A stretch of DNA of 41,157 bases from Arenibacter sp. (lineage in GTDB: Bacteria; Bacteroidota; Bacteroidia; Flavobacteriales; Flavobacteriaceae), in the NCBI GenBank assembly GCA_041582955.1, contig JBFHGV010000001.1, positions 1 to 41,157 on the forward strand, written 5' to 3'. The notes beneath the pieces are model-generated. The model worked only from the letters and a program-made list of their open reading frames with translations, was not told where the DNA came from and searched no databases. Position 1 is the stretch's first letter; each line of letters starts with the position of its first letter. Shown piece after piece: positions 10,973 through 41,157 of the stretch. A program made the translations under genes and the position numbers.

Positions 10973-11024
10973 CAATATCAAGACGCTAAGTCATATATAA
11001 GGTCCATTTTTTTACACTTATCAG

Positions 11025-11146: not shown

Positions 11147-11169
11147 CCTATTGGCGGCCGCCAATAGGG
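11146..11169. repeat. Perfect 24-bp palindrome
   Basis: CCCTATTGGCGG|CCGCCAATAGGG, no spacer, GC-rich within an AT-rich intergenic region. Confidence 0.9.
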
Positions 11170-11214
11170 TCGTTTTATTAATTTAGCAATAATCTAACTC
11201 AATTTTTACGAATT

Positions 11215-14229: not shown

Positions 14230-14240
14230 ATAAAGAAACT

Positions 14241-15788: not shown

Positions 15789-15805
15789 CAAACACTAGAC
15801 ATCAA

Positions 15806-17560: not shown

Positions 17561-17571
17561 TATAGTGAATT

Positions 17572-18939: not shown

Positions 18940-19105
18940 TCTGCTTGGTTGACGGTTTTCAAGTACGTTGATGGCCTATATACATTAAATACCCATACGG
19001 TTGCTTAGTGGTGTATGCCTTGATTCTTATAACCGGCTAAACGGTATCGCAACATCTCTAAAAAAACGAGGGCGTAATAGCAGTAGCCGATAAAGAAAAG
19101 CTAAA

Positions 19106-21266: not shown

Positions 21267-21316
21267 AGAACGGCCAAAGAATTTTGCAGTCATGAATTTG
21301 CATAAAACGGAACCAG

Positions 21317-23122
21317 ATGAAAATTTTAAAAAATATAATTGCAACAGCGGTTTTACTATTTAGTGTAATAATTTATTCACAGGAAGTGGTTCCGGAAACT
21401 TATATCAATCCTCTGGATATTGACTATACCTATATGGTTTATAATTCCAGTAGGAATATTTCCTACCGGTCCGGTGCAGATCCCGCAGTAATTGAATTTC
21501 GTGGGGAATACTACATGTTTGTCACTCGGTCTTTTGGTTATTGGCATTCAACCGATTTGATCAACTGGGAATTTATTAAACCTAAACAATGGTTTTTCGA
21601 GGGTTCCAATGCCCCGACCGCATTTAATTATAAAGATTCGCTGGTATATTTTGCTGGTGATCCCGCAGGTTACGGAAGTATTCTTTATACCGATGACCCC
21701 AAAAAAGGGGAGTGGACACCTACCGCGTCTATTACCAAAAACATCCAAGATTCGGAGTTGTTTATTGACGACGACGGAAAAACTTATCTGTATTGGGGCT
21801 CGTCTAACAAATATCCACTTCGTGTGAAAATGGTAAATAAGGACGATCGTTTTCTTGAAACCGGCGTTGAGAAAGAACTTTTCAATTTGGTTGAAGAGGA
21901 ACATGGTTGGGAACGTTTTGGCGAAAATAATTACCATCCAACCTTAAAGGAAGGATACATGGAAGGAGCTTCGATCACCAAACACCACGGGAAATACTAT
22001 TTACAGTATGCAGCGCCCGGGACACAATTTAATGTGTATGCCGATGGTACTTATATTGGTGAAACCCCCTTGGGTCCTTTTACTTACATGAAAAATAATC
22101 CGATGAGTTTTAAGCCTGGCGGTTTTGCTAATGGGGCAGGCCATGGTATTACCGTGAAACAAACCAATGGCCAATACTGGCATTTTGCCACCGTTGCATT
22201 GGCATCAAATTCTCATTGGGAACGTCGTCTGGCCATGTTCCCCACCTATTTCGATGATGAAGGATTAATGTATTCCAACACCAGCTATGGCGATTACCCC
22301 TTATTCGGGCCAAATCATCCAACAAAAGCAGGACAGCATAGTGGCTGGATGCTGCTTTCTTACAAAGGAAAAATAACGGTTTCATCTTCAAAAATGCAGG
22401 TGAAAAAAAGTACTTCTACCGATGATGATTATGACATCACCGAAATGTCACTTGAAAGGAATAGCGAAGGTGAAATTATTTCGAAACTCTTAACTGATGA
22501 AAGCCCGAAATCTTTTTGGGTTGCTGAATCCAATGATGATGAGCAATGGGTTAAGATCGAAATGCTTTCACCTGGAAATATTTATGCTTTTCAATTGAAT
22601 TTTCATGATCATGAATCGGGCATTTATACCCGTACTGAAGGTCTACGACATCGATTTACTCTGGAGGTTTCAGAGGATGGAAAAAACTGGGAAACTGTTG
22701 TAGACAGAAGCGGGAGTTATAAAGATGCGCCAAATGCCTACATCCCCCTAAATCAACCTGTACGAGGAAAATACGTACGCTTCAATAATGTGGAGGTTCC
22801 GGGGAAGAACCTAGGATTATCAGAAATAAGGGTATTTGGAAAAGGTTTAGGAAAGAAACCGGAAAGGGTGAATGGATTTAAAGTAACCAGGCAGGAAGAC
22901 AGAAGAGATGCCTCTATTACCTGGAACCCGGTGAAAGGAGCACAGGGTTACAATATCCGATGGGGTATCGAACCTGATAAATTATACCACTCCTGGTTGA
23001 TTTATGATGTGAACGAACATTTTATGCGCAACCTCGATCGCGATACGCGATATTATTTTAGTATAGAAGCATTTAATGAAAATGGGATTTCAGATAAAAC
23101 TGAGGTACAGGAAGTGAAATAA
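21317..23122 (+). CDS. GH43 glycoside hydrolase with F5/8 (CBM32-like) and Fn3 C-terminal domains
   Basis: 'YRSGADPAVI', 'DSELFIDDDGKTYLYWG', 'YMEGA', 'GAGHG'; then 'LEVSEDGKNW...GKYVRF' and Fn3 'ITWNPVKGAQGYNIRWG...YFSIEAFN'. Confidence 0.88.
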   Translation: MKILKNIIATAVLLFSVIIYSQEVVPETYINPLDIDYTYMVYNSSRNISYRSGADPAVIEFRGEYYMFVTRSFGYWHSTDLINWEFIKPKQWFFEGSNAPTAFNYKDSLVYFAGDPAGYGSILYTDDPKKGEWTPTASITKNIQDSELFIDDDGKTYLYWGSSNKYPLRVKMVNKDDRFLETGVEKELFNLVEEEHGWERFGENNYHPTLKEGYMEGASITKHHGKYYLQYAAPGTQFNVYADGTYIGETPLGPFTYMKNNPMSFKPGGFANGAGHGITVKQTNGQYWHFATVALASNSHWERRLAMFPTYFDDEGLMYSNTSYGDYPLFGPNHPTKAGQHSGWMLLSYKGKITVSSSKMQVKKSTSTDDDYDITEMSLERNSEGEIISKLLTDESPKSFWVAESNDDEQWVKIEMLSPGNIYAFQLNFHDHESGIYTRTEGLRHRFTLEVSEDGKNWETVVDRSGSYKDAPNAYIPLNQPVRGKYVRFNNVEVPGKNLGLSEIRVFGKGLGKKPERVNGFKVTRQEDRRDASITWNPVKGAQGYNIRWGIEPDKLYHSWLIYDVNEHFMRNLDRDTRYYFSIEAFNENGISDKTEVQEVK

Positions 23123-23162
23123 AGAAAATAACGCATCAATTTTTTAAATTATAACTAATAAG

Positions 23163-25430
23163 ATGAGAAGATTTAATCTGTCTGTCGCTGTGCTATTTTT
23201 CACAGGGCTTTCAAGTCTACAAGCACAAGAAAATATCCCCTTCGTGGAAGAGCTGTTGCGGAAAATGACCGTAGAAGAAAAGATTGGACAGTTAAACCTA
23301 TTGACCCCAGGGGGTGGTGTTGCCACAGGCGCAGTAGTCAGTGAAAATGTGGAAGCCAAGATTAAGGCAGGTCAGGTAGGCGGACTCTTTGGGGTGGCCG
23401 GACCGGAAAGGATAAAGATGGCGCAGGATTATGCTACCAAAGATACCCGTTTAAAAATACCCTTGCTATTTGGTTCCGATGTTATCCACGGCTATAAAAC
23501 CACTTTTCCTATTTCTTTAGGGCTTGCGGCGAGTTGGGATATGGAGCTGATAGAAAAAACGGCAAGGATTGCTGCCAAGGAAGCGACGGCAGACGGAATT
23601 AACTGGAATTTCTCCCCTATGGTAGACTTAGCCAGAGACCCCAGATGGGGCCGTATTGCCGAAGGAGCTGGAGAAGATCCTTATTTGGGATCTGCCATTG
23701 CCCAAGCAATGGTAAAAGGCTATCAGGGAAGCGATCTTACCCAGCCTAATACTATGTTGGCCACCGTAAAACACATGGCCCTCTATGGAGCTTCTGAGGG
23801 AGGCCGCGATTACAATTCCGTGGATATGGGGAAGGTGAAGATGTACAACGAATATTTACCGCCTTATAAAGCAGCAATCGATGCAGGTGCTTCTAGTGTA
23901 ATGACCTCTTTTAACGATGTGGACGGTATACCAGCCTCCGGGAATAAATGGCTGTTGACAGAGCTACTAAGGGAGCAGTGGGGTTTTAATGGATTTGTTG
24001 TGTCCGATTATACCTCTGTTAATGAAATGATTGCCCATGGACTGGGAGATTTACAGGCCGTATCTGCCTTAGCCCTTAATGCCGGTTTGGATATGGATAT
24101 GGTGGGAGAAGGCTTCTTAACTACCTTGAAAAAATCCTTGGAAGAAGGGAAGGTGACCGAAGAACAGATTACACAAGCCTGTCGCAGGGTGCTAGAAGCA
24201 AAGTATAAGTTGGGGCTCTTTGAGGATCCCTATCGGTATAGCCACCCACAAAGACCTGCCAAAGATATCCTGAGCCTAGAGAACCGAAAAGTGGCACGGG
24301 CCGCTGCGGCACGTTCTTTTGTACTTTTAAAGAATCACAATGAACTTCTTCCTCTAAAAAAAGAAATGAAAATTGCCATTATAGGGCCCTTGGCAAATAA
24401 TAAGAACAATATGTTGGGAACCTGGGCACCTACGGGCGACCCGCAATTGTCGGTTCCTATCCTAGACGGATTAAAATCGGTGGCCCCAAGGGCTACCATC
24501 GGTTACGCAAAAGGCGCCAATATTTCGGACGACCCAGAATTGGCGAAAAAGGTAAACGTATTTGGTCCCAGAATAGAGATCGATGCCCGTACGCCAGAAG
24601 AGATGCTCCAGGAAGCCTTGGATCTGGCCAATACCTCCGACGTAGTAGTGGCCGTAGTGGGAGAGGCTACTGAAATGAGTGGGGAAGCGGCCAGTAGAAC
24701 CGATCTTTCCATACCAGAAAGTCAGAAGAAATTGATCCGCGCCCTAGTAGCTACTGGGAAGCCCGTGGCCCTAGTGCTAATGAGCGGACGCCCGTTGACC
24801 ATCCCCGAAGAATTGGCACTGCCAGTGAGCATTTTGCAAGTATGGCACCCTGGGGTAGAGGCTGGGAATGCCGTGGCCGATGTGCTGTTTGGGGATTACA
24901 ATCCGTCCGGAAAGCTTACCGCTACCTGGCCCGTGAACGTAGGACAGATCCCTATTTATTACAGTAGGAAAAATACAGGTAGGCCGGCAACTTCAGAAAG
25001 TTTTCAGAAATTCCAATCCAATTATCTGGATGCACCCAATGCCCCCTTGCTGCCCTTTGGGTACGGGCTGAGTTATACCCAGTTTCAATATTCCAATCCC
25101 AAGGTAGATAAAGCAGAGATTGGCCAGGGCGAAGGGGTCCGCATTTCCGTAACCCTAAAGAATATTGGTAATTACGATGGGGAGGAAGTGGTACAACTCT
25201 ACCTCAGAGACGTGGTAAGGAGTATTACACCCCCCATGCGAGAGCTTAAAGGGTTTAAAAAAGTATTCCTTAAAAAAGGGGAATCCAAAGAGGTTACTTT
25301 AACCCTACAACCCGATGATCTAAAATTCTATAACAGCCAATTGGAATTTGTTTCAGAACCAGGGGAATTTGGGGTCTATATCGGTACGGATTCCAAGGCA
25401 ACGGAAAAAGTAACTTTTAAATTAAAATAA
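23163..25430 (+). CDS. bglX: GH3 beta-glucosidase (BglX-type)
   Basis: 'DVIHG', 'RDPRWGR', 'KHMALYG', 'GFVVSDY' nucleophile, 'GEATEMSGEAASR', Fn3-like 'EVVQLY...ELKGFKKV'. Confidence 0.95.
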   Translation: MRRFNLSVAVLFFTGLSSLQAQENIPFVEELLRKMTVEEKIGQLNLLTPGGGVATGAVVSENVEAKIKAGQVGGLFGVAGPERIKMAQDYATKDTRLKIPLLFGSDVIHGYKTTFPISLGLAASWDMELIEKTARIAAKEATADGINWNFSPMVDLARDPRWGRIAEGAGEDPYLGSAIAQAMVKGYQGSDLTQPNTMLATVKHMALYGASEGGRDYNSVDMGKVKMYNEYLPPYKAAIDAGASSVMTSFNDVDGIPASGNKWLLTELLREQWGFNGFVVSDYTSVNEMIAHGLGDLQAVSALALNAGLDMDMVGEGFLTTLKKSLEEGKVTEEQITQACRRVLEAKYKLGLFEDPYRYSHPQRPAKDILSLENRKVARAAAARSFVLLKNHNELLPLKKEMKIAIIGPLANNKNNMLGTWAPTGDPQLSVPILDGLKSVAPRATIGYAKGANISDDPELAKKVNVFGPRIEIDARTPEEMLQEALDLANTSDVVVAVVGEATEMSGEAASRTDLSIPESQKKLIRALVATGKPVALVLMSGRPLTIPEELALPVSILQVWHPGVEAGNAVADVLFGDYNPSGKLTATWPVNVGQIPIYYSRKNTGRPATSESFQKFQSNYLDAPNAPLLPFGYGLSYTQFQYSNPKVDKAEIGQGEGVRISVTLKNIGNYDGEEVVQLYLRDVVRSITPPMRELKGFKKVFLKKGESKEVTLTLQPDDLKFYNSQLEFVSEPGEFGVYIGTDSKATEKVTFKLK

Positions 25431-25470
25431 AGCTTAAAACTTATCTATAGCGACCAAAATCAAATAGAAT

Positions 25471-27108
25471 ATGCACCATTTAAGTAAATTATTGCTTTTG
25501 CTTAGTATCCTATTTGGGGTATCATGCAAATCGGAAAAACCTGGTAATCCCATAGAAAATAAAAGGCCCAACATCCTTTTCATTATGGCCGATGACCATG
25601 CTATCCAGGCTCTTAGTGCCTATGGGCATCCCATAGGGAAATTAGCGCCCACCCCCAATATAGATAAGCTTGCCAAAGGAGGAGCCCTCTTTACCCATAG
25701 CTATGTAACCAACTCCATTTGCGGCCCTAGCAGGGCGGTGATATTAACGGGAAAACACAGTCATATCAACGGGTTTAGGCAAAATGGCGACCGTTTTGAT
25801 GGGAGTCATCCTACCCTGCCAAAGATGTTGCAACAGGCAGGTTATCAGACTGCCCTCTTGGGGAAGTGGCATTTGCACGGATACCCGGAGGGTTTTGATT
25901 ATTGGAATATATTAGTGGACCAAGGTAATTATTACAACCCTGATTTCATTGAAAATGGAGATACCACCAGGATACAGGGATACGCTACGGATATCATTAC
26001 CCATGATACCTTGGATTGGCTAAAAACCAAACGGAAGGATAGTATACCTTTTTTTCTAATGGTACAGCACAAGGCTCCGCATAGGAATTGGATGCCGGCT
26101 TTGCGACATGTCAATAAATATGATTCGGTTCAATTTCCCATGCCAGACTCTTATTTTCCTACTTTCAATAACCAACAGGCGGCCGAGGAACAGCTACAGA
26201 ATATCTACCGAGATATGTATGAGGGGCACGACCTTAAGATGTCTGTGGAATATGGGAGTACGGAACTGGCCCACAATCCTTGGAAAACCGATTTTGAACG
26301 AATGAGCCCCGAGCAACGTAGCGCATGGGATGCTGGCTACTTGCCCAAGAATAATGCTTTTCACAAGGCGAAATTAAAGGGGAAGGAGTTGGCCAAATGG
26401 AAGGGACAGCGCTATTTGCAGGATTATATGGCCACCATTGCTTCCGTAGATGAAGGCGTGGGGGAGCTTATGGCGTATTTGGAGGAAAATGGCTTGATAG
26501 ATAACACCTTGGTAGTCTATACCTCCGATCAAGGATTTTATCTAGGGGAAAACGGGTGGTTCGACAAACGGTTTATGTACGAGCCCTCCTTTGGGACTCC
26601 CTTGGTGATGCAGTGGCCCGGGCATATATCTCCAGGAAAAAGGGTGGATGCACTGGTGCAGAATCTGGACTTTGCACCCACCTTTTTGGAGGTGGCCGGG
26701 GTACCGGAGTTGGGAGCGGAAATGCAGGGGGAATCTTTTCTGGGACTCTTAAACGGGAGTCAGGATCAGGCAGATTTTAGGGAGGTAATTTACTATCATT
26801 ATTATGATTACCCCGCCTTTCATATGGTGAAGAAACATTATGGAATACGTACGCAACGCTATAAATTGATGCATTTTTATGACGATATTGATCAATGGGA
26901 ATTATATGACCTGGAAAAGGACCCACTAGAACAACACAATCTAATTGAAGATAGGCTATATAGTGATGTATTAATTGAAATGCACCGAAAATTGGACAGT
27001 ATTCAGAAATTTTATCGGCTTACGGATCAAGAATTTCTCAATGCTCCTAAAGAAAAAGTGGAAAACGCCGATAAGTTATTTGAAAGACTTAGGGGCTTGG
27101 ATAATTGA
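25471..27108 (+). CDS. Formylglycine-dependent (S1) sulfatase, Cys-type, lipoprotein
   Basis: Lipobox 'FGVSC'; 'RPNILFIMADDH', 'CGPSRAVILTG', 'GKWHL', 'YTSDQGFYLGE', 'DKRFMYE'. Confidence 0.93.
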   Translation: MHHLSKLLLLLSILFGVSCKSEKPGNPIENKRPNILFIMADDHAIQALSAYGHPIGKLAPTPNIDKLAKGGALFTHSYVTNSICGPSRAVILTGKHSHINGFRQNGDRFDGSHPTLPKMLQQAGYQTALLGKWHLHGYPEGFDYWNILVDQGNYYNPDFIENGDTTRIQGYATDIITHDTLDWLKTKRKDSIPFFLMVQHKAPHRNWMPALRHVNKYDSVQFPMPDSYFPTFNNQQAAEEQLQNIYRDMYEGHDLKMSVEYGSTELAHNPWKTDFERMSPEQRSAWDAGYLPKNNAFHKAKLKGKELAKWKGQRYLQDYMATIASVDEGVGELMAYLEENGLIDNTLVVYTSDQGFYLGENGWFDKRFMYEPSFGTPLVMQWPGHISPGKRVDALVQNLDFAPTFLEVAGVPELGAEMQGESFLGLLNGSQDQADFREVIYYHYYDYPAFHMVKKHYGIRTQRYKLMHFYDDIDQWELYDLEKDPLEQHNLIEDRLYSDVLIEMHRKLDSIQKFYRLTDQEFLNAPKEKVENADKLFERLRGLDN

Positions 27109-28409: not shown

Positions 28410-28997
28410 ATGGCTAAGCATGATATAAATGAAATATTAGAGAAAGGAATAGAACTCTTTCGCCTTAATGGTTATCACAATACTGGTATAAGGGATATTC
28501 TGAAGGCTTGTGGAATGCCAAAGGGATCTTTTTATCATTCTTTTGAAAGTAAGGAAGATTTTGTTATCAAGGCTATCTTGCACTTTGAAGAGGTTATTGG
28601 AAGAGATTTTGAAAAAAATCTGACAGATGAGTCACTTTCATATTATGAACGGTTACGGAATCATTTTGAGATACATATTAAATGGTATACAGAGAACGAT
28701 TTTAAGGTAGGTTGTCTTTTGGGAAATTTAAGCACTGAAGTTGCGGGCACTATAGATCCAGTATCCAAGGTAATTTCCGGAGTTTACGATAGATGGAGCA
28801 TAGGACTGGCTCAGTTTATTAAAAAAGGTCAGCAAAATGGGGATATTATCGATAATATCGATCCACTGTCTTTGGCGAACTACCTTTTTAATAGTTTTAA
28901 CGGCGCATTGGGGAGAATGAAAGTAGAACGATGCCGTGAACCGTTGGATCATTTTCTGTCGATCAACATGGCCTTTATAAAGAAGGAAAAAAAATAG
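28410..28997 (+). CDS. nemR: TetR family repressor, NemR-like
   Basis: HTH 'GYHNTGIRDILKACGMPKGSFYHSFESKE', conserved 'GCLLGN' cysteine; lies directly upstream of an Old Yellow Enzyme gene. Confidence 0.85.
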   Translation: MAKHDINEILEKGIELFRLNGYHNTGIRDILKACGMPKGSFYHSFESKEDFVIKAILHFEEVIGRDFEKNLTDESLSYYERLRNHFEIHIKWYTENDFKVGCLLGNLSTEVAGTIDPVSKVISGVYDRWSIGLAQFIKKGQQNGDIIDNIDPLSLANYLFNSFNGALGRMKVERCREPLDHFLSINMAFIKKEKK

Positions 28998-32044: not shown

Positions 32045-32767
32045 GTGATGAAACAGGCCTGCGGAACATTCGTGAAATTGGACCAGAAAAACACAGCCCT
32101 TCTTGTATTTTCTCTTTCGGCTGAAATGGAAATATGTAGGAAATCCATTTTTCATAGGCACCAAAAAAGGGAGAATACGGCCTTTTTTAATTTATTGATA
32201 CAAGAAACCAAGGATTTAGCTTACCAAAGTGGAATTGATGTTTTTTGGGTGGATGAGCACCAGCAGATTGGTGATGATTTTTCAAGCCGTTTTGCAAATG
32301 CATTTCAAGGGTTGTTTGACAAGGGTTATGAAAATGTAGTTTCTATAGGCAATGATTGCCCGGATATGACCCATCAGCTCTTGCAGGATGCCATTGAAAA
32401 AGTGCGGACCAAAAGGCTAGTAATAGGTCCTTCCAAGGATGGTGGAGTATACCTTTTGGGAATCAATAGGCAGATATTTGATAAAATAAAATTTCAACAG
32501 TTACCATGGCAAACTTCGGGGTTACAGCATGGTTTGGTCAAATATTTTAATTCACAAAAAATTGAATGTTATTTGTTCCATGAACTTAACGATTTGGATC
32601 TTTTCAGGGATGTACTACACTATGCTAAATCCAACCCTTCTAGAATTATAAGCAGGTTTTTCAAGGTAATAACAATATCAAAGAGGAGTGTATTGCCTGT
32701 TGCAAACAATTTAATTCAATCATTATTACGGTATTCATATATGGGGCTCAGTCCCCCTGTCGTTTAA
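32045..32767 (+). CDS. DUF2064 / TIGR04282-like CofC-fold glycosyltransferase-like protein
   Basis: 'TALLVFS', 'QIGDDFSSRFANAF', 'VVSIGNDCP', 'VIGPSKDGGVYLLG', 'LPWQT', 'LNDLD'. True start may be GTG 32072. C-terminal tail ends GLSPPVV. Confidence 0.85.
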   Translation: MMKQACGTFVKLDQKNTALLVFSLSAEMEICRKSIFHRHQKRENTAFFNLLIQETKDLAYQSGIDVFWVDEHQQIGDDFSSRFANAFQGLFDKGYENVVSIGNDCPDMTHQLLQDAIEKVRTKRLVIGPSKDGGVYLLGINRQIFDKIKFQQLPWQTSGLQHGLVKYFNSQKIECYLFHELNDLDLFRDVLHYAKSNPSRIISRFFKVITISKRSVLPVANNLIQSLLRYSYMGLSPPVV

Positions 32768-32797
32768 TTACTTCCCGTTGTAAAAATCTATGAAGTT

Positions 32798-32824
32798 AAT
32801 GGACACTTTATTATTAGGTCCATT
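32798..32824 (+). promoter_or_regulatory. Stem-loop between the DUF2064 gene and the second susC
   Basis: AATGGAC (32798-32804) / GTCCATT (32818-32824), 20 nt before the susC ATG; followed by the palindrome GTTTAATTAAAC. Confidence 0.45.
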
Positions 32825-32844
32825 GTTTAATTAAACTAATTAAT

Positions 32845-35800
32845 ATGAAATCAATACCAATTGTTGCTTTGCAATTGTTCGTGTTGACCTTGTTTGCGCA
32901 GGGAAGCACATATAATTCAAGGGTGTTGGACAGTAATGGGCAGTCAATTCCTTTCGCTGCTGTAATTGAAGAGGGAACCCAAAATTATACGACCGCGGAT
33001 GAAAATGGGTACTTTGAGTTAAGGACCGGATCAGAAAATTTTGTCCTTCAAATTTCCTCCATAGGGTATAAGACCCTTAATTATGAAGTGGTGGACGGCC
33101 AGTTCCCCTTTAGACTTGTTATGACAGCTTCCCAAGAGCAGTTAGAGGAAGTGGTGGTAACGGCGTTGGGTATTGGAAAAGCTCGACGCGCTTTGGTCTC
33201 CTCCGTATCCACAGTTAGTTCTGACAAGTTGGTCACAGTCCCGCAGACCAATCTTGTTAATGGTTTGGCCGGGCAGGTTGCCGGGGTGCAAATTACCAAC
33301 GGCTCCAGTGGCGTGGGATCCTCATCCAGAATCATTATCCGGGGGGAAAATTCCTTGAGTGGTAGCAATCAGCCTCTTTTCGTGGTAGATGGTGTTCCCA
33401 TAAGTAATGATCAGATTACAAGTGATCTGGTCAATAATGGCTCGTTACAGGAAGTGGATTATGGAAATGGTGGCGCTGAGTTTAGTCCAGACGATATTGA
33501 ATCCATTTCAATATTAAAAGGTGCCGGTTCCGCAGCACTTTATGGTGCCAGGGCAGCCAACGGAGTTGTTCTCATCACTACCAAACGAGGGAAAGCGATC
33601 AAAGGTTTTGGGGTAAGTCTAAATAGTAATTTTACCGTTGAAAGCTTACTTACATTGCCCGATTATCAGAACGCCTATGGGTTAGGGGCTAATGGAGCAT
33701 ATGCATTTCAGGATGGTGTTGGCGCCGGCATAGGTGATGGTGGTATTAGTAGTTATGGGCCGCGATTGGATGCTGGACTTTTGATTCCACAATTTGATAG
33801 TCCGTCCGTGGATGTTAATGGTAATCCCGTGAGGGCGGCTGATGTCATTTCCCGTAGGTTTGCCGATGGCTCCTTTACTCCAATAACGCCTACCCCTTGG
33901 GTGGCAAGACCTAACAATGTTCGGGACTTTTTTGAAACAGGGATTACCTATCAAAATAATATAGCAATAAGCAATTCAGGAGATAACGGCAGTAGTCGGT
34001 TATCCTACAGTAGTTTGCGCAATGAGGGCATGGTACCAAATACGGACCTCAAGAGAGACGGGATTGCCTTAAGCCTTGATCAAATTTTGAGCGACAAACT
34101 TCAGGTGAATGCTTTTGTAAATTATATTAACACCCGAAGTGGTAACCGCCCCAATTTGGGCTATGGTTATGAAAACGTGCTATATGGGTTTAATTGGACA
34201 GGGAGGCAGGCCAATATAGAACCGCTCAAGAACTATTGGCAGGCAGGCCAGACTGGTCGCCAACATTTTGACATCAACTACCTGTGGTTGACCAACCCTT
34301 ACCTTACCCTATTTGAAAATACCAATAGTTTTAACAAGAATAGGGTTTTGGGAAATATATCCGCAAACTACGACTTTTCAGATTATCTCTCCCTCAAAAT
34401 CCGGACAGGTCTGGATAATTACAGTGAAAACAGGGAGTTTAGAAGGGCGGTAAGTACCAATGCAAACCCATTTGGATCATTTCGCAAAGATGATCTACGG
34501 TTTACTGAATTGAATACGGATTTTTTGTTGACGTACAAGAATAATATTAATCAAGATTGGCTATATACCCTGACTGCTGGGGGCAACCGATTTGACCAAA
34601 AAATAAACTATTCTTATGCTGCCGCTTCACAGTTGGCCATTCCTGAAATTTACACATTGGCCAATTCTAGGGCTCCACTATTGGGAAACAGTGAAAACTT
34701 GGACAAGCGGGTCAACAGTATTTATAGTACTGTCAATTTTGAGTACCGGAACCACTTTTTTGTAGACCTTACCTATCGCAATGATTGGAGTAGTACCCTG
34801 CCGGATGGCAATAACTCCTTTGGGTATTACTCGGCAGGTCTTAGTTATATGGTCTCTAACGGTCTAAGATTGCCCGAAGCGATCTCTTTCTTGAAGTTTA
34901 GGTTAAGTGCCGCCTCGGTGGGCAATGATACAGATCCTTTTCAAGATACCCAGACTTTTCTGCTGAACGGCAATTATGGTTCAAACTTCAGGGTTACCAA
35001 CCAAACCATCCTAAAAAACACCGATCTAAAGCCGGAACGTCTTGACGCCTATGAAGGAGGAATGGAGGCTTGGCTCTTTAATGGTAGGATACAGTTTGAA
35101 GGTTCCATTTATGAAAATTTAAGTAAATACCAAATTATATCAAGACCCATATCCAATGCCACGGGCTTTAACAGCTTTAATGAAAATGGAGGTAAGATTA
35201 GGACACGTGGACTTGAATTAATGTTAAGTGCCTCGCCCATAAAGACTCTGGATTTTAATTGGAATACCTCCTTAAATTTTAGCACTTATAGGAGCGTGGT
35301 CACCGAATTGCCTGAAGGCGTGGATCAATTTGTAACCACTACAGCCAATGTTTTTAGTGGGAGTGGCGGTTCCAATACAGTTTTTTATATTGCGCGCGAA
35401 GGTGGACGGGTAGGGGATATGTACGGCACGGGCTTTGTGCAAATAGAGGGGCAGGATCTTTATGATGCCAACGGTTTACCGGTACAGGATGCCAAGCTAC
35501 GGAAACTGGGCAACTACAATCCGGATTTTTCGGTGGGATTCAACAATAGTTTTTCTTATAAGAATTTTCATTTTTCATTTTTGTTCGATTGGCGTCATGG
35601 CGGAACCATTGTATCGCGTATCAAGGCCTTGGGAAGTACATCCGGTGTTCTAAAAGAAACCTTGCAGGGCCGTGAAGGAGGTTCAGCAAGCACGGCGTTT
35701 GTGGATGGTAGTGGTGTTGTGGGGGAAGGTGTGGTAAATGTAGGTTCTGCAGACAGCCCAGTATATGTTCCCAATACCACCGCAGTTGCTGCAAATAGGT

Positions 35801-36096
35801 TCAATAATGCCTATTATGACCGTGGCAATGAAGTCAGTGCCCTGTATGATGCCTCTTATTTGAAATTAAGGCAAATGAGTGTCTATTATACTTTCCCGGC
35901 ACAAATGGCTAAATCCATAGGAGTGCAACAGCTAAAGATAGGGCTTATAGGTAGCAACTTGCTACTGTTCACTGAAAACCCGCATTTTGACCCAGAATTA
36001 AATGCCTTCCAGGAACGCAATGTTGTATATGGGGTTGAGGACTTTTCCTATCCATCAAGTAGAAGTTATGGTATTAGCCTTAAAACAAATTTTTAA
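32845..36096 (+). CDS. susC: SusC/RagA family TonB-dependent transporter
   Basis: 'LEEVVVTALGI', 'QPLFVVDGVPI', 'DDIESISILKGAGSAALYGARAANGVVLITTKRG', C-terminal 'YPSSRSYGISLKTNF'. Confidence 0.97.
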   Translation: MKSIPIVALQLFVLTLFAQGSTYNSRVLDSNGQSIPFAAVIEEGTQNYTTADENGYFELRTGSENFVLQISSIGYKTLNYEVVDGQFPFRLVMTASQEQLEEVVVTALGIGKARRALVSSVSTVSSDKLVTVPQTNLVNGLAGQVAGVQITNGSSGVGSSSRIIIRGENSLSGSNQPLFVVDGVPISNDQITSDLVNNGSLQEVDYGNGGAEFSPDDIESISILKGAGSAALYGARAANGVVLITTKRGKAIKGFGVSLNSNFTVESLLTLPDYQNAYGLGANGAYAFQDGVGAGIGDGGISSYGPRLDAGLLIPQFDSPSVDVNGNPVRAADVISRRFADGSFTPITPTPWVARPNNVRDFFETGITYQNNIAISNSGDNGSSRLSYSSLRNEGMVPNTDLKRDGIALSLDQILSDKLQVNAFVNYINTRSGNRPNLGYGYENVLYGFNWTGRQANIEPLKNYWQAGQTGRQHFDINYLWLTNPYLTLFENTNSFNKNRVLGNISANYDFSDYLSLKIRTGLDNYSENREFRRAVSTNANPFGSFRKDDLRFTELNTDFLLTYKNNINQDWLYTLTAGGNRFDQKINYSYAAASQLAIPEIYTLANSRAPLLGNSENLDKRVNSIYSTVNFEYRNHFFVDLTYRNDWSSTLPDGNNSFGYYSAGLSYMVSNGLRLPEAISFLKFRLSAASVGNDTDPFQDTQTFLLNGNYGSNFRVTNQTILKNTDLKPERLDAYEGGMEAWLFNGRIQFEGSIYENLSKYQIISRPISNATGFNSFNENGGKIRTRGLELMLSASPIKTLDFNWNTSLNFSTYRSVVTELPEGVDQFVTTTANVFSGSGGSNTVFYIAREGGRVGDMYGTGFVQIEGQDLYDANGLPVQDAKLRKLGNYNPDFSVGFNNSFSYKNFHFSFLFDWRHGGTIVSRIKALGSTSGVLKETLQGREGGSASTAFVDGSGVVGEGVVNVGSADSPVYVPNTTAVAANRFNNAYYDRGNEVSALYDASYLKLRQMSVYYTFPAQMAKSIGVQQLKIGLIGSNLLLFTENPHFDPELNAFQERNVVYGVEDFSYPSSRSYGISLKTNF

Positions 36097-36105
36097 TAAT
36101 GGTCT

Positions 36106-37551
36106 ATGAAAAACTCACTATTGCTTTTAGTTTCTTTTTTAAGCTTGTTCAATTCAAGCTGTACGGAAGACTTTGGCACCATAAACGATAACCCCAATTC
36201 CCCTCAGGAAGTAAGTCCGGAGTTCCTGTTGACCAATGTTATTGCGGCCCAAATTAATGAGCACACCTATAATCAAGGTCTTAGGCTCAATAATTACTTG
36301 GCACAATTCAATGCAGATATTGAATTTGAACGTATTGACCGGTATGAACTGGGTAGCAATAGCGGTTATTGGAATTTGATTTACGGTCTGTTGGCCGATT
36401 TGGAATCCATGAAAATCTTGCCAGGTTATAATGAGGCCTACGATGGAGTGGCCGAAATTTTGCGAAGTTATCTATTTTCACAACTTTCTGATATGTGGGG
36501 CGATGTGCCTTATAACGAGGCCATAAAGTTCAACGAACTTAATTTTACGCCAACTTATGATGCTCAGGAACGTATTTATACGGACCCTGAAACCGGCATA
36601 TTGGCGCGATTGGAATCTGCCGTGGCACAGCTTCAAAATACTACCGAGAGTATTCAGGGCGATATTATCTTCGGAAATGATTTGTCAGGGTGGATTAGAT
36701 TTGCGAACTCGCTTCAGGTTCGTTATTACCTTCGCATCAGTAAGCGGGTGACGGATTTTGGGAAATTACAGGAATTGGTCGATGGGGAAATGCTTATGCA
36801 GTCCAATGAAGACAATGCCATTGTGCCGTATTTAAATTCTGCTCCAAATCAATTTCCTTTGTATAATGCTTCCACAGGTATTTTTCAAGGATTAAAAATG
36901 AGCGAAACCTTAGAGAACATATTAAAGAGTTGGGATGACCCTAGGATTTCCGTTTTTTATAATCCCACTCAAGAAAGCATACTTGCTGGAACCCCGGAAT
37001 ATAAAGGAATGCCTAACGGGCTTAGCACCCAGACCATAAGTGAAAGGGGAATCGTTCTTAATGATGTTTCCAACCTGGACGATAGGTTTAGGGTAGTCCC
37101 TGATGGGGTGGATGCCCAGATTATGCTCTATTCGGAAGTACAATTTGCGTTGGCCGAAGCTGTGGAGAGAGGGTACATCACAGGAAATGCCCAGACCTAT
37201 TACAATAATGGTATACAGGCACATTTTGAGTATTACGATACACAGGTGCCAGCAGACTACTTTGAACGAGAAGCCATTGCTTTAAATAGTAGCACGAGTG
37301 AAAACCTTGATAAAATTTTAACCCAAAAGTGGTTCAGCCTTTTTATGGTGGGTCACGAGGCCTGGTTCAATATTCGGCGTACGGGCATCCCGGAATTGAC
37401 CGTGGGTCTGGACAATTTTAACAACGACCAATACCCAACACGATACTTGTATCCTGAGTCTGAACAAGCGGCAAATAGCGCAAATTACGATATAGCCGTT
37501 TCCCGCATTGGTGGGGATAATATTAACATCAAGAATTGGTGGGAAAAGTAA
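36106..37551 (+). CDS. susD: SusD/RagB family lipoprotein (SusD-like_2 type)
   Basis: Lipobox 'FNSSC' + 'TEDFGTINDNPN'; 'WGDVPYNEA', 'WIRFANSL', 'QKWFSLF', 'EAWFNIRRTG', 'PTRYLYP', 'WWEK'. Confidence 0.95.
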   Translation: MKNSLLLLVSFLSLFNSSCTEDFGTINDNPNSPQEVSPEFLLTNVIAAQINEHTYNQGLRLNNYLAQFNADIEFERIDRYELGSNSGYWNLIYGLLADLESMKILPGYNEAYDGVAEILRSYLFSQLSDMWGDVPYNEAIKFNELNFTPTYDAQERIYTDPETGILARLESAVAQLQNTTESIQGDIIFGNDLSGWIRFANSLQVRYYLRISKRVTDFGKLQELVDGEMLMQSNEDNAIVPYLNSAPNQFPLYNASTGIFQGLKMSETLENILKSWDDPRISVFYNPTQESILAGTPEYKGMPNGLSTQTISERGIVLNDVSNLDDRFRVVPDGVDAQIMLYSEVQFALAEAVERGYITGNAQTYYNNGIQAHFEYYDTQVPADYFEREAIALNSSTSENLDKILTQKWFSLFMVGHEAWFNIRRTGIPELTVGLDNFNNDQYPTRYLYPESEQAANSANYDIAVSRIGGDNINIKNWWEK

Positions 37552-37571
37552 ATTGACAATAACAATAACAC

Positions 37572-38684
37572 ATGAAAATAATTAATAGTACAGTGGGGCT
37601 TCTAATGACCATTTATCTTATGACCAATGCACAACTGAATGCTAATATAAATAGCAGGACCATGTTATCATCACATTGGAATTTAGTAGAACACAGTCCA
37701 TTATCTGGGTATAATGTAGAATCCGTAGTTTACTATGCAGGCCATAGGCCTGTTATAACCAATAAGAAGATGGTTTGGGTTGATACTGATCTTACAGTAG
37801 GAATGAAATGCTACTATAGGGAGGGCTTCAGTGATGTTGATGATGGCTATGCCGTTTTGCAATTGTTCAAAGCAGATAACATTCATATTACCGGCATCAG
37901 TGCGGTTTTTGGAAACACCAAAATTGATGATGCCTATCGGCTTTGTAAAAAAATGGTAAGTGATTTTTCGGGTAATCCCATCCCTGTGCACAAAGGTGCG
38001 GGGGAAAAGATAGATTTGGTCCAGGTGGTTACAATTGATGCGGTTGAAGCTATGGCAGAGGCCTTACGAAAAGAACCTCAGACTATTTTAGCCATTGGAC
38101 CAGCAAACAATGTTGGCCTACTTTTATTGTTATATCCAGAACTTGCGCCTCAAATTCAAGAGGTTGTGCTAGTTGCCGGACGAAGAACACCTACTTCGTA
38201 TTTCGAAATTGGAAATCCGGTACGTCATGCTCCTGACTTAAACTTCAACCTAGACAATGAGGCTTTCCGCATATTGTTTCAGAGGGAAATAAAAGTGGTT
38301 CTTTGCCCATTTGAAATATCAAATAAAGTTTGGTTAACGGCAGAAGACCTGAAGGATTTACAGGATGGTACGTCAGGTAACGCATGGTTAACCAATGCAT
38401 CAAAGCCCTGGTTAGAGCAGTGGGTAGATGCTGGGGACAAAGGGTTCAATCCATTTGATGTTTTTGCTAGCCATTACCTTATTGCTCCCGAAGATCTTAT
38501 CATGGAGCCACTTCTGGCCCGGTTGGAGATTCATGTAAACGATATGAAATTGGAAAATAAGGAACACAATTTTAAGCAATATCTATTGTGTGACAAAAAG
38601 GGTGGATACCCTATACTGTATTGCTACGGTGTTGTTTCCGATTATCATCAAAAATTAATGGCCAGTCTATTAAAATCCAATTAA
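37572..38684 (+). CDS. Inosine/uridine-preferring nucleoside hydrolase family protein, divergent, with signal-peptide-like N-terminus
   Basis: 'VWVDTD...SDVDDGYA' (expanded DxDxxxDD), 'GISAVFGN', 'PVHKGA', 'LAIGPANNV', 'DLNFNLD', 'FNPFD'. Confidence 0.85.
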   Translation: MKIINSTVGLLMTIYLMTNAQLNANINSRTMLSSHWNLVEHSPLSGYNVESVVYYAGHRPVITNKKMVWVDTDLTVGMKCYYREGFSDVDDGYAVLQLFKADNIHITGISAVFGNTKIDDAYRLCKKMVSDFSGNPIPVHKGAGEKIDLVQVVTIDAVEAMAEALRKEPQTILAIGPANNVGLLLLLYPELAPQIQEVVLVAGRRTPTSYFEIGNPVRHAPDLNFNLDNEAFRILFQREIKVVLCPFEISNKVWLTAEDLKDLQDGTSGNAWLTNASKPWLEQWVDAGDKGFNPFDVFASHYLIAPEDLIMEPLLARLEIHVNDMKLENKEHNFKQYLLCDKKGGYPILYCYGVVSDYHQKLMASLLKSN

Positions 38685-38700
38685 AATAAAAAATGGCAGG

Positions 38701-39678
38701 ATGGAGAAGTTGACAAGGGATATTGACAAACTGCAGGCCTATTTGAATCGGCGAGGGTGGTTGTTTCCAGATGAAAATATAGCGGCAGTTGAAGTCCCGG
38801 GAGCAGGGAATATGAATTTTACACTTCGAATCAAAACCAATGCGCGTAGTTTTATTATAAAACAGAGCAGGGACTATGTTGAGAAATATCCCCAGGTGGC
38901 CGCACCAGTGGAAAGGGCATTGCGTGAGTCCGAGTTTTATACCCTCATCGCCGATCATGATATTTTGAAGCGACAGATGCCAGAACTGAAGGGAGTAGAC
39001 AGACATAATCATGTCCTGAACTTTCAAGATTTGGGAAACGGTTTTGACTTTACCTATATATATCAAAAGGATGAACACCTAGAGGAAACCGATCTTCAAA
39101 AAATAATGGCCTTTGCAGCAACCCTACATGAAACCATCCGTACGGATACGACCCATGTAAGATTGGCCAATAGGAAAATGCGTAAACTCAATCATGAACA
39201 TATTTTTATCTATCCTTATGAAAATAGACTCGACCTGGATGTCATTCTTCCCGGGCTAAAGGGAATTGGCCATAACTTTAAGGCAGATTGGACTTTAAAG
39301 GATAGGGTACAAAAACTAGGCGAGCTTTATCTCGCGGATGGAAAGACTTTGTTACACGGAGATTATTTTCCCGGTAGTTGGTTTAAGGCTGAGGATGACA
39401 TTAAAATTATAGATCCAGAATTCTGCTTTTTTGGGGAGCCCGAATTCGACATTGGCGTGACCCTTGCACATTTAAAAATGTCTTCACAATCTCAATCTTT
39501 GATCGAAAAAGCGCTTAAATATTATTCGAATTTGGCTCCACTTAACAAGGACTTGTGCTTCCAATTCATGGCAATTGAAATACTACGGCGTTTACTGGGG
39601 TTAGCACAACTACCATTGAGTCTGGACCTTGAAGAACGTAAAGCTCTTCTTGAGGAGGCCCGTAGCATCCTAGTATAA
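38701..39678 (+). CDS. 5-methylthioribose-kinase-like phosphotransferase (APH/choline kinase fold)
   Basis: 'GAGNMN' (MtnK GxGNxN), 'IIKQS', 'LLHGDYFPGS', 'IIDPEFCFFG..EFDIG' (MtnK-type DPE motif). Confidence 0.85.
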   Translation: MEKLTRDIDKLQAYLNRRGWLFPDENIAAVEVPGAGNMNFTLRIKTNARSFIIKQSRDYVEKYPQVAAPVERALRESEFYTLIADHDILKRQMPELKGVDRHNHVLNFQDLGNGFDFTYIYQKDEHLEETDLQKIMAFAATLHETIRTDTTHVRLANRKMRKLNHEHIFIYPYENRLDLDVILPGLKGIGHNFKADWTLKDRVQKLGELYLADGKTLLHGDYFPGSWFKAEDDIKIIDPEFCFFGEPEFDIGVTLAHLKMSSQSQSLIEKALKYYSNLAPLNKDLCFQFMAIEILRRLLGLAQLPLSLDLEERKALLEEARSILV

Positions 39679-39926
39679 CCAAAGAATAAATCCGTACAAT
39701 ACAATCATAAAATGAATCGTAGGTAGGGTAATTATTACTATACTGTCCTGAATTTCGAGTACTCATCAGTTTCAAAAAATAGGAAAATTGAAGGAGGGCT
39801 ATCCCAATTGGACAAAAGTTTAAAATTCAGTCTAAGTGATCTAGAAAATAACTTGTAAGAAGATTATCCTGAAACCCTAAGATGGTGAAATCCGAACAAT
39901 GGACTTTTTGGCAAATGAAATAGGAT

Positions 39927-40579
39927 TTATATCCTTTTGTCCTTACTATCCTTGTCAAAGGCGTACAAATTAAATAATTGTCTCATTCTGGTACGCACTC
40001 GGTTACCATAGCGTACCTCAAGTTCTTGGGCATTAAGATTGGTAGTGGCATGAGTATATATGTTATGGTTCAATAATATTTCGTATCGTGAAAGAAGTAT
40101 TTCCCCATGACATTACAATCCTTTCCGAAATATCGTCCAGTGGGTTCTACTCCCAGTTTATCAAAACAATAGGCTTTGCCCTCACCATATTCCTCGACAA
40201 TTTTAAAGTCGATATTATTAAGGGCAAATATGATATTGCGAACCGGAATTACTTCGTAGGGTCGGGCATAGAGGGTCAGATAACGCAATTAGTTCATAAG
40301 ACTGCTCTTACCCCAACCTACAGGTCCTGACAGCAATATGCTCTTTTTAAGTTCAATATCCAACTTCTTGCAATTCAGTGGGTCTTTGATATAGTAGTTA
40401 CAGAGTTTGAGTAAAACCTCTCGGTACTGCTCAAAAATACTAAAATTTTTACCGAACATAATTTTTCCCTTGACATGGAGATACACCGATATTTTTTCAA
40501 AAGCATACCAGATCTGATTATCCTAAAGGCTACCTAGGACGTACTGTTTATAGCCCACAAAGCGAATATGTGGGTTCAT
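39927..40579 (-). pseudogene. P-loop ATPase (DnaC/IstB-like loader of Bacteroidota integrative elements), decayed
   Basis: ATG 40579; in-frame TAG 40523-40525; Walker A 'GPVGWGKS'; in-frame TAA 40289-40291; Walker B 'CFDKLG'; frameshift near 40105 (MG|EILLSRYE); 'THATTNLNAQELEVRYGNRVRTRMRQLFN'; stop at 39927-39929. Confidence 0.85.
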
Positions 40580-40901
40580 AGCGGTTGATTAAATCTTTCA
40601 TGGAACTTATCCCAAGGTTGTCCGTATTTTGGCTGACCGGGACCAATGTTTTATCCTCCTTTAATTCCTTTGCCTTAAGCATCCATTTTTTAGCAAGTGC
40701 GAACCAATCCACGATTTCGGCCGTGCCTCCAACTTTCCATCTGATGCTTTGATAATGACAATGAAACTTTTTTGCTTCCCCAAAGGGCAATTTCCTTTCA
40801 ATAAAAAACGTAACGACTAGTTTTTCATTTTGGGGTAGGTCTAGTTTGCCCCCATTTATTTTGTTTTTAATAGCTTTTATATGATTATTTATGGCTACCA
40901 C
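40548..40901 (-). pseudogene. C-terminal remnant of a phage/ICE replication-initiator-like protein
   Basis: 'EAKKFHCHYQSIRWKVGGTAEIVDWFALAKKW' resembles the F..YY...GW.VG....M..W...A..W motif of the gene that normally precedes this ATPase. No N-terminal HTH part is seen upstream. Confidence 0.6.
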
Positions 40902-40909
40902 TACTTGTA

Positions 40910-41157
40910 CATTACTTGTCTGATTATAAAGAATTATTTAATTGTAATTCGATTTCGCTATAACTAGTAGAGCTAATTATTACATAAATTATGGGCAATC
41001 GATATTGTAAAATTTACACGCTGATATAAAATTTACAAATTATAAATTATTCAATAATTGCTAATATATTAACAATATAATTTATTGTTAATATTAAAAA
41101 AATAGTAATAATGTAATAAAATTAAATAATATCATAATTATATTCAAAATATACACC
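40910..41157. other. Very AT-rich non-coding tract
   Basis: Nearly all A/T from about 41020 onward; no ORF in the track. Confidence 0.6.

What the first reader, a model, noticed from the sequence alone, without database searches (positions are those of the whole stretch)
32045..39678. CAZyme-free SusC/SusD locus with DUF2064, nucleoside hydrolase and MTR-kinase-like enzyme: candidate modified-riboside (possibly arsenosugar) utilisation system
Seen: five co-oriented, tightly spaced genes (gaps 77, 9, 20, 16 nt) with no glycoside hydrolase, lyase or regulator. Established: nucleosidase followed by a ribose-1-kinase is the entry logic of 5'-methylthioadenosine salvage (MtnN/MtnK) and 5'-deoxyadenosine salvage (DrdK). 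TIGR04282/DUF2064 proteins are annotated in radical-SAM ArsS arsenosugar-associated clusters, and arsenosugars are 5-substituted ribosides abundant in marine algae. Inference: this SusC/D imports a 5'-substituted riboside (arsenoriboside, MTA or 5'-deoxyadenosine), the hydrolase removes the aglycone and the kinase phosphorylates the 5-substituted ribose. That would be a PUL-like locus for a small non-polysaccharide substrate. No inner-membrane transporter, isomerase or aldolase is in the window, so the pathway is incomplete here.
Basis: partly seen in the sequence, partly recalled or inferred. Interest (0 to 1): 0.85.

Follow-up and report, generated by a model that had tools for sequence, protein, structure and literature searches.

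The report
Likely arsenic-sugar uptake and salvage operon
Five genes in a marine flavobacterium form an uptake operon, conserved across Bacteroidota, that in some relatives sits exactly where the arsenic-sugar synthesis gene arsS normally sits, so it likely imports ready-made arsenic-containing ribosides and recycles them instead of making them.

Summary
The five genes and spacings are real. Of 33 loci found with the kinase, 28 have the hydrolase, 27 a TonB-dependent transporter and 14 a YnjBCD-like ABC importer. Methionine or 5-deoxyribose salvage is unlikely: MtnA was found in 0 of 151 family genomes and 0 of 27 transporter-bearing genomes, and the kinase's 5-substituent pocket differs from MtnK. 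The link to the ArsS arsenosugar pathway is strong. In two Kriegella genomes the cassette replaces TIGR04169-arsS between identical flanks, behind the same DUF2064 leader. Of 27 transporter-bearing genomes, 24 keep the TIGR04283 transferase but only 7 have arsS. One database kinase is fused to a canonical TIGR04282 domain. Best reading: import and salvage of an arsenoriboside to its ribose-1-phosphate, feeding arsenosugar or arsenolipid assembly; the substrate is untested. The first gene is not the canonical transferase. It belongs to a subfamily ending in an RAPP/RGPP ribosome-arrest-type motif (102 of 108 homologues), here eroded to LSPP by a 3-nt deletion. This scan noted both the operon and the leader before on other DNA, and such leaders are listed in a published source table.

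The parts
32045..32767 (+). Leader-type DUF2064 protein with a CofC-like nucleotidyltransferase fold; lacks the N-terminal FxKxPxxGxxKTRL loop of canonical TIGR04282; predicted sensor/arrest leader. Probable start GTG 32072.
   Evidence: PF09837 77 bits; TIGR04282 95 bits, under its cut-off of 134. AlphaFold model pLDDT 88; best folds 3cgx and the CofC/FbiD guanylyltransferases. Alignment.
32747..32758 (+). Eroded arrest-type motif: codons for LSPP where relatives have L/F-R-A/G-P-P (3-nt deletion).
   Evidence: DNA alignment. 102 of 108 homologues end in [RK][AG][PS]P; the window's protein is one of the 6 that do not. A contig of run X1 covers 32286-33085 with no difference (probably the source sample, so not independent).
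32762..32836 (+). Predicted long-range helix pairing the leader's last codon and stop (32762-32770) with 32828-32836, 17 to 9 nt before the susC ATG.
   Evidence: Predicted in the window, L006, L008 and L039. In 5 close loci the helix pairs are mostly invariant, with two one-sided G-U changes and no compensatory change, so this is weak evidence.
32845..36096 (+). SusC-type TonB-dependent transporter, 1083 aa.
   Evidence: TIGR04056 586 bits. 60-85% identical to the full-length SusC of the related loci, 41-44% to SusC genes in three arsS operons, at most 34% to its own genome's paralogues.
36106..37551 (+). SusD-like lipoprotein, 481 aa.
   Evidence: PF12771 313 bits. Best solved relatives are unassigned SusD homologues (3ejn, 3mx3).
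37572..38684 (+). IU-family nucleoside (riboside) hydrolase with an N-terminal signal-like extension, predicted exported.
   Evidence: PF01156 104 bits. Acidic Ca-site motif with an insertion, and Phe-Asp where two plant hydrolases have His-Asp. Hydrophobic N-terminus in 16 of 16 transporter loci without an ABC importer and 0 of 16 with one (a hydropathy heuristic, not a signal-peptide predictor).
38701..39678 (+). MtnK-like (APH-fold) sugar kinase, predicted to give a 5-substituted ribose-1-phosphate.
   Evidence: TIGR01767 106 bits, under 275. Model pLDDT 95; top folds are MTR kinases, TM 0.74-0.81, 18-20% identity. HGD, DPE, Phe241, RR and Leu301 kept; His167 at the Leu180 position in 53 of 54; no Trp at W74.

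Best explanation
This operon likely imports an arsenic-containing riboside (dimethylarsinoyl-adenosine or a related arsenosugar) and likely salvages it: SusC/SusD would carry it across the outer membrane, the predicted exported hydrolase would remove the aglycone, and the kinase would phosphorylate the freed 5-substituted ribose at C1. That sugar-1-phosphate is inferred to be the same intermediate the de novo route would make from the ArsS product through the purine nucleoside phosphorylase in the arsenosugar cluster. It would then feed the canonical TIGR04282 nucleotidyltransferase-like protein and the TIGR04283 glycosyltransferase for arsenosugar or arsenolipid assembly. In relatives with an ABC importer the intact riboside would enter the cytoplasm and be cut there; in this five-gene form the inner-membrane carrier is unidentified. 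The first gene belongs to a subfamily predicted to act as a ligand-sensing ribosome-arrest leader over either the uptake genes or the arsS genes; this genome's copy has lost the motif's arginine, so that switch is probably damaged here. Shown: gene content, synteny, co-occurrence, motif conservation, folds. Inferred: substrate, each reaction, direction of flux, arrest.
For: (1) Swap at one chromosomal site. In 6 of 20 arsS loci fetched (L093-L095, L097, L099, L101; ten of the 20 were picked as kinase-positive genomes, ten arbitrarily) the order is oxidoreductase, DUF2064 leader, usually TIGR04169, arsS, TetR, GT9, DUF4254. Two Kriegella genomes have the same flanks on both sides but carry leader, SusC, SusD, ABC, hydrolase, kinase in place of TIGR04169-arsS, and no arsS was found in them. 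Two Cellulophaga loci have the cassette inverted between these flanks, also without arsS. In L015 the cassette, rhodanese, TIGR04169 and arsS are one co-oriented run. (2) Complementary distribution. Of 27 genomes with a transporter in the locus, 24 have TIGR04283 (23 over cut-off), 7 have arsS and 0 have an MtnA-fold gene; the family baseline for arsS is 118 of 151. Among the 33 arsS-negative family genomes, TIGR04283 is in 4 of 6 with the kinase and 0 of 27 without (Fisher p 3.7e-4, overstated because kin are not independent). (3) A sister kinase clade lies near canonical TIGR04282 plus PNP in 12 of 17 loci, often with rhodanese, an ArsM-like methyltransferase, DUF547 and TIGR04283. (4) Fusions among 150 representatives: canonical DUF2064-kinase (P0211), hydrolase-kinase (P0127), ADP-ribosylglycohydrolase-kinase (P0115). 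(5) The kinase keeps the residues that PMC2194712 (passages) assigns to ribose O1-O3 binding, but changes two of the three residues capping the 5-substituent (W74 lost, L180 to His in 53 of 54). (6) ArsS makes DDMAA from DMAs(III) (PMC13598754, passages). (7) This genome has arsS, a canonical TIGR04282, PNP, an ArsM-like gene, DUF547 and TIGR04283 on other contigs.
Against: No ligand or activity was tested; arsenic is inferred from family names and from ArsS chemistry shown in other organisms. Across all 151 family genomes the kinase is not tied to arsS either way (14 of 20 against 104 of 131, p 0.39). The TIGR04283 pattern does not generalise across the phylum: family f26 has TIGR04283 in 39 of 41 but arsS in 9 and the kinase in 3. 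Four kinase-positive genomes of more distant kinase types (G068, G098, G345, G415) and three Saprospiraceae MAGs with the full cassette (L021, L022, L025) showed neither TIGR04283 nor arsS. Many of the 27 genomes are MAGs of unknown completeness; among 11 Flavobacteriaceae isolates arsS is in 5. Four of the six loci with no transporter lie in genomes that have an MtnA-fold gene. Pairing of SusC/D with nucleoside hydrolases and ADP-ribosylglycohydrolases is also seen in plain ribose systems (10.1101/574913, passages). No inner-membrane carrier was found for this five-gene form; the ABC binding protein and an SSS permease seen in other loci gave no tblastn hit in this 78%-complete genome.
Confidence: 0.55

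Rival explanations
1. The operon imports arsenoribosides in order to break them down or detoxify them (carbon use, release of dimethylarsenic), not to feed biosynthesis.
For: Same arsenosugar linkage as above. An uncharacterised radical SAM enzyme, not ArsS, sits in 7 of 33 loci. Some kinase carriers lack TIGR04283.
Against: No isomerase of the MtnA fold in the transporter-bearing genomes; no conserved aldolase or dehydrogenase cluster next to the cassette. Replacement of arsS and retention of TIGR04283 point to supply rather than disposal.
Confidence: 0.15
2. The logic is salvage into the TIGR04282/TIGR04283 branch, but the natural substrate in these bacteria is a non-arsenic 5'-modified riboside (a sulfur, selenium or phosphorus analogue).
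For: arsS is in 118 of 151 family genomes, which is broad for an arsenic side-pathway (inference). Rhodanese and FAD-oxidoreductase genes travel with the cluster. ArsS activity has not been shown for a flavobacterial enzyme in anything I read.
Against: The only ArsS reaction I found in print is As-adenosylation. An ArsM-like methyltransferase (Pfam methyltransferase match; the ArsM label is my recall, not a call result) lies in the same clusters.
Confidence: 0.15
3. It is a variant ribose utilisation system (RUS) for ordinary nucleosides or ADP-ribose, using a non-homologous kinase.
For: RUS loci combine SusC/D with nucleoside hydrolases and ADP-ribosylglycohydrolases in 70 configurations (10.1101/574913, passages). 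The kinase family pairs with both hydrolase types.
Against: No RusR/LacI regulator, ribokinase or permease among the five genes. The kinase has the MTR-kinase fold. This reading does not explain the DUF2064 leader, the swap with arsS or the DUF2064-kinase fusion.
Confidence: 0.1
4. It is an MTA or 5'-deoxyadenosine salvage entry (MtnN/MtnK or DrdK logic).
For: The closest solved relatives of the kinase are MTR kinases.
Against: Score far under the MTRK cut-off; altered 5-substituent cap. MtnA in 0 of 151 family genomes, with the control ringing in 9 of 14, and in 0 of 27 transporter-bearing genomes.
Confidence: 0.05

Closest known systems
Ribose utilisation system (rus, BT2802-09) of Bacteroides thetaiotaomicron (10.1101/574913, passages read)
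   Same: SusC/SusD pair plus nucleoside hydrolase plus sugar kinase, for a small ribose-containing nutrient rather than a polysaccharide.
   Different: No RusR/LacI regulator, ribokinase or RusT permease. Has an MTR-kinase-fold kinase and a DUF2064 leader, often an ABC importer, and is tied to arsenosugar genes.
ArsM/ArsS arsenosugar gene set (NCBIfam TIGR04167, TIGR04169, TIGR04282, TIGR04283)
   Same: Shares the DUF2064 fold, neighbours, leader gene and, in some genomes, the chromosomal site.
   Different: The locus has no ArsS, ArsM or TIGR04283 itself; it is an importer plus hydrolase plus kinase. Its DUF2064 is not the canonical TIGR04282.
MtnN/MtnK methionine salvage (PMC2194712, passages) and DrdK 5-deoxyribose salvage (recalled)
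   Same: Hydrolase followed by an MTR-kinase-fold enzyme with HGD, DXE and RR motifs.
   Different: About 19% identity, about 70 aa shorter, changed 5-substituent pocket, no MtnA-type isomerase found, and fed by an outer-membrane importer.
CruR (DUF2946) and other RAPP/RGPP arrest leaders (PMC9426467 abstract; PMC12992588 passages and supplement rows)
   Same: Upstream ORF with a C-terminal RAPP-type motif ahead of a TonB-dependent transporter. DUF2064 proteins of this kind appear in the RAPP uORF source table of PMC12992588 (44 occurrences of the term; rows upstream of SusC and of TIGR04169 seen).
   Different: A whole enzyme fold with no evident signal peptide instead of a small exported metal sensor. 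Not mentioned in that paper's main text (0 hits for 'DUF'). Arrest untested. The window's own copy has lost the motif.

Membership tests
Ribose utilisation system (RUS) | SusC and SusD homologues | tested here: met
Ribose utilisation system (RUS) | One or two ribokinase genes, a RusT permease and a RusR/LacI regulator in the locus | tested here: not met
   None among the five genes by Pfam or NCBIfam; the kinase is MTR-kinase fold
Ribose utilisation system (RUS) | Induction by ribose | not testable with these tools
   Needs cultures
MtnK (S-methyl-5-thioribose kinase, TIGR01767) | Score over the curated cut-off | tested here: not met
   106 bits against 275; 0 of 251 phylum genomes over cut-off
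MtnK (S-methyl-5-thioribose kinase, TIGR01767) | HGD, DXE and RR motifs and fold | tested here: met
   HGD and DPE 54 of 54, RR 53 of 54; fold
MtnK (S-methyl-5-thioribose kinase, TIGR01767) | Hydrophobic cap W74/L180/L345 on the methylthio group | tested here: not met
   W74 absent, L180 is His in 53 of 54, L345 kept; by sequence alignment, not superposition
MtnK/DrdK pathways | Downstream MtnA-type isomerase in the genome | tested here: not met
   Not found in this genome (78% complete), in 151 family genomes or in 27 transporter-bearing genomes
IU-family nucleoside hydrolase (PF01156) | Pfam cut-off | tested here: met
   104 bits against 34
IU-family nucleoside hydrolase (PF01156) | N-terminal DXDXXXDD Ca/ribose motif | tested here: inconclusive
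   The aspartates are invariant but split by an insertion
TIGR04282 canonical transferase | Score over cut-off and N-terminal FxKxPxxGxxKTRL loop (motif read off the canonical copies here) | tested here: not met
   95 bits against 134; loop present in the C86 and L010 copies, absent in the leader type
RAPP/RGPP arrest leaders | RAPP-type motif near the C-terminus, upstream of a co-oriented gene (subfamily) | tested here: met
   83 of 108 strict R[AG]PP and 102 of 108 loose; 24 of 888 locus ORFs carry it, all DUF2064; codons vary synonymously
RAPP/RGPP arrest leaders | Intact motif in the window's own copy | tested here: not met
   LSPP through a 3-nt deletion
RAPP/RGPP arrest leaders | Translation arrest and control of the downstream gene | not testable with these tools
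   Needs toeprinting and reporters
ArsS arsenosugar pathway | Acts on an arsenic-containing riboside | not testable with these tools
   Genomic association only

The most novel reading that the evidence does not exclude
Marine Bacteroidota treat arsenoribosides as a scavenged metabolite worth having: a dedicated SusC/D (plus or minus ABC) importer with a new riboside hydrolase and a new 5-dimethylarsinoyl-ribose 1-kinase can replace de novo ArsS synthesis at the same locus. Both modules are feedback-controlled by a retired nucleotidyltransferase that senses the pathway's sugar phosphate and releases a RAPP ribosome arrest. This would be a dedicated arsenosugar uptake and salvage system and an enzyme-fold metabolite-sensing arrest switch.
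Probability: 0.35. Interest if true: 0.9.

Novelty: new variant of a known kind. Interest (0 to 1): 0.68.

Why it matters
Arsenosugars are the well-known organic arsenic of seaweeds (PMC12608789, passages), and that review calls uptake mechanisms for small organoarsenicals largely unknown, though it speaks mainly of animal cells. My 10 literature searches found no paper describing a bacterial arsenosugar importer, this kinase family or the late steps after ArsS; subscription journals are mostly outside that library. If the reading holds, it gives named, assayable candidates for uptake and for the sugar-1-phosphate step, suggests that these bacteria need the product rather than merely detoxify arsenic, and adds a non-glycan substrate class to SusC/D systems.

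Tried and rejected
MTA or 5'-deoxyadenosine salvage: rejected on the missing MtnA and the altered pocket. Simple co-occurrence of the kinase with arsS: none (14 of 20 against 104 of 131). Generalising the TIGR04283 pattern to the phylum: failed. A universal RNA switch: folding of 25 leader-to-next-gene regions gave z-scores from -3.3 to +1.5 and no shared structure; one region (L018) was mis-bounded; the helix seen in the close clade has no compensatory change. General decay of the window's operon: private changes at conserved sites are somewhat above the sister locus L006 for SusC (24 against 14), hydrolase (6 against 2) and kinase (4 against 2) but within the range of other loci, so inconclusive. 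Expression: no RNA holder listed. The metagenome scan gave 1 locus. SusD and the ABC binding protein have no ligand-informative solved relative. The associated radical SAM stayed unnamed. Upstream TetR, flavin oxidoreductase and thioredoxin genes are not conserved next to the cassette and were left out. The kinase tree is the quick tree, midpoint-rooted, with no MtnK outgroup, so no order of events is claimed. Literature searches for DUF2064 and for arsenosugar biosynthesis with ArsS and glycosyltransferase returned 0 papers; the 'SusC' term mostly matched unrelated words. One supplementary file of PMC12992588 was not searched and file 8 was cut when stored; bioRxiv supplements were not read and could list such loci among RUS variants.
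Full report
Observation. The five ORFs, their orientation and the gaps of 77, 9, 20 and 16 nt are as described. Pfam and NCBIfam give DUF2064, SusC, SusD, an IU-family nucleoside hydrolase and an APH-fold kinase most like MTR kinase but far under its cut-off. The window is contig C1 of a 78%-complete genome. The nearest relative of the locus lies in a record titled Arenibacter sp. F20364 (82% kinase identity). A close match to the leader was found in only 2 of 25 genomes of the genus, this one included, so the locus is accessory.

Conservation. A scan with the kinase gave 33 loci, all from records titled or placed as Bacteroidota. Clustering their ORFs showed the hydrolase in 28, SusC/SusD in 20, another TonB-dependent receptor in 7, DUF2064 in 24, a four-gene ABC importer in 14 and an unnamed radical SAM enzyme in 7. 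Some misses are loci cut by contig ends or by the 10-kb flank. The ABC binding protein scores over the cut-off of NF008633 (PRK11622; the name YnjB for this family is recalled). The exact five-gene order is in 6 of the 33. Single neighbours include arsS, TIGR04169, TIGR04283, DUF547, a rhodanese (NF045521) and PNP.

Compartments. The hydrolase has a hydrophobic N-terminal extension in all 16 transporter loci without the ABC importer, the window included, and in none of the 16 with it (hydropathy heuristic; one truncated hydrolase and one locus without a transporter set aside; kin are not independent). I infer that the ABC importer moves the intact riboside to a cytoplasmic hydrolase, while the five-gene form cuts it outside the cytoplasm. 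The carrier for the freed sugar is not identified here.

The kinase is not MtnK. Its model (pLDDT 95) matches MTR kinases best at 18-20% identity. In 54 homologues HGD, DPE and the Phe are invariant and RR and the L345 equivalent are in 53, but L180 is His in 53 and W74 has no Trp counterpart; His is also seen in 131 of 150 wider representatives, with 8 not matched by the pattern. So it is predicted to be a ribose 1-kinase for a more polar 5-substituent. MtnA, needed downstream in both methionine and 5-deoxyribose salvage (the latter recalled), was found in 0 of 151 family genomes and 0 of 27 transporter-bearing genomes, though in 4 of the 6 genomes whose kinase has no transporter beside it.

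Link to the arsenosugar pathway. First, synteny. Six of 20 arsS loci have the order oxidoreductase, DUF2064 leader, usually TIGR04169, arsS, TetR, GT9, DUF4254, and the window's own genome has leader, TIGR04169, arsS, TetR, GT9 on contig C144. Two Kriegella genomes carry the uptake cassette between the same flanks and show no arsS; two Cellulophaga loci carry it inverted there. L015 holds both modules in one run, so differential loss from a joint operon explains the pattern as well as replacement does. Second, distribution: 24 of 27 transporter-bearing genomes have TIGR04283 and 7 have arsS, against 118 of 151 for arsS in the family sample. Among the 33 arsS-negative family genomes TIGR04283 was found in 4 of 6 with the kinase and 0 of 27 without. 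Third, a sister kinase clade lies near canonical TIGR04282 and PNP in 12 of 17 loci, usually beside an ADP-ribosylglycohydrolase or a second hydrolase family. Fourth, fusions join the kinase to a canonical DUF2064, to the hydrolase and to an ADP-ribosylglycohydrolase. Fifth, a sister SusC/D clade with an SSS-like permease sits in three arsS operons. ArsS makes DDMAA (PMC13598754, passages). A PNP acting on DDMAA would give the 5-dimethylarsinoyl-ribose-1-phosphate that hydrolase plus kinase would give from an imported riboside, and a CofC-like fold suits activating such a phosphate. These steps are inference.

Results against. The kinase is not enriched or depleted with arsS in the whole family sample. 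At phylum level TIGR04283 often occurs without arsS or the kinase (one search scored at most 11 candidates per genome). Seven kinase carriers showed neither gene. Many genomes are MAGs. Nothing here shows arsenic.

The first gene. It folds like 3cgx and the CofC/FbiD guanylyltransferases but lacks the N-terminal loop of the canonical copies and carries about 40 extra C-terminal residues. In 102 of 108 homologues the last 16 residues hold [RK][AG][PS]P (RAPP 54, RGPP 29, KGSP 18, RGSP 1); among 888 ORFs of the loci only 24 have this, all DUF2064. The codons vary synonymously, so selection is on the peptide. RAPP and RGPP are arrest motifs (PMC12992588, passages), and CruR uses one to shut a TonB-transporter operon when its ligand is present (PMC9426467, abstract). 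By analogy the leader would keep uptake or synthesis on until the pathway's metabolite accumulates; the KGSP form is not among the motifs I saw tested. In the window a 3-nt deletion gives LSPP, also present in a contig of the best-holding run, so this copy probably no longer arrests. A helix pairing the stop codon with the region before the susC start is predicted in the close clade but lacks covariation.

Known or new. It works like a RUS-type small-molecule PUL and like MtnN/MtnK entry, but fails the membership tests for both. DUF2064 RAPP leaders are listed in the source table of PMC12992588 without mention in its text. Earlier notes of this scan describe the same operon and the same leader type on other DNA; I had reached both readings before looking (notes), and those notes are not independent evidence. 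A word search for the salvage-replaces-arsS reading returned nothing, although one note speaks of kinase, hydrolase and importer replacing the arsenic-specific enzymes. Verdict: a real, conserved, uncharacterised importer-salvage module of the ArsS-linked pathway; new variant of a known kind; interest 0.68.

Noticed in passing
window 8216-27108: A separate ordinary PUL: LuxR-type regulator, SusC, SusD, laminin-G protein, two glycoamylase-family (PF10091) genes, esterase, GH43, GH3 and a sulfatase.
   Followed up: no
G000:C144:4490-6908: A second leader-type DUF2064 ending in KGSP heads TIGR04169-arsS in this genome; canonical TIGR04282 and PNP are on C86, and PNP, an ArsM-like gene, DUF547 and TIGR04283 on C569.
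   Followed up: yes
L015:11007-11978 (also L007, L018, L020, L024, L026, L037, L040): An unnamed radical SAM family of about 320 aa, not ArsS, travels with the ABC-containing form of the cassette.
   Followed up: partly
L096, L107, L108: A sister SusC/SusD clade (41-44% to the window's SusC) with an SSS-like permease, and in two loci a metallophosphoesterase, lies in arsS operons: a second candidate uptake system.
   Followed up: partly
L042-L056: A sister kinase clade sits with an exported-looking ADP-ribosylglycohydrolase and often a GH32 beside the canonical arsenosugar cluster; this hydrolase is a candidate O-riboside hydrolase.
   Followed up: partly
window 28410-28997: An AcuR-like TetR upstream of a flavin oxidoreductase clusters by BLAST with the TetR that flanks arsS operons; probably only family-level likeness.
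   Followed up: no
window 37572-39678: The window's hydrolase has Asn where nearly all homologues have Thr (GPATN motif) and its kinase lacks two residues near position 173; together with the leader deletion this hints at relaxed selection, not shown.
   Followed up: partly
L015, L016 leaders: Two Leeuwenhoekiella leaders also lack the arrest-type motif, so motif loss is not unique to the window.
   Followed up: no
window 39679-41157: No long ORF after the kinase; one 117-aa minus-strand ORF without a family match, then the contig ends.
   Followed up: no
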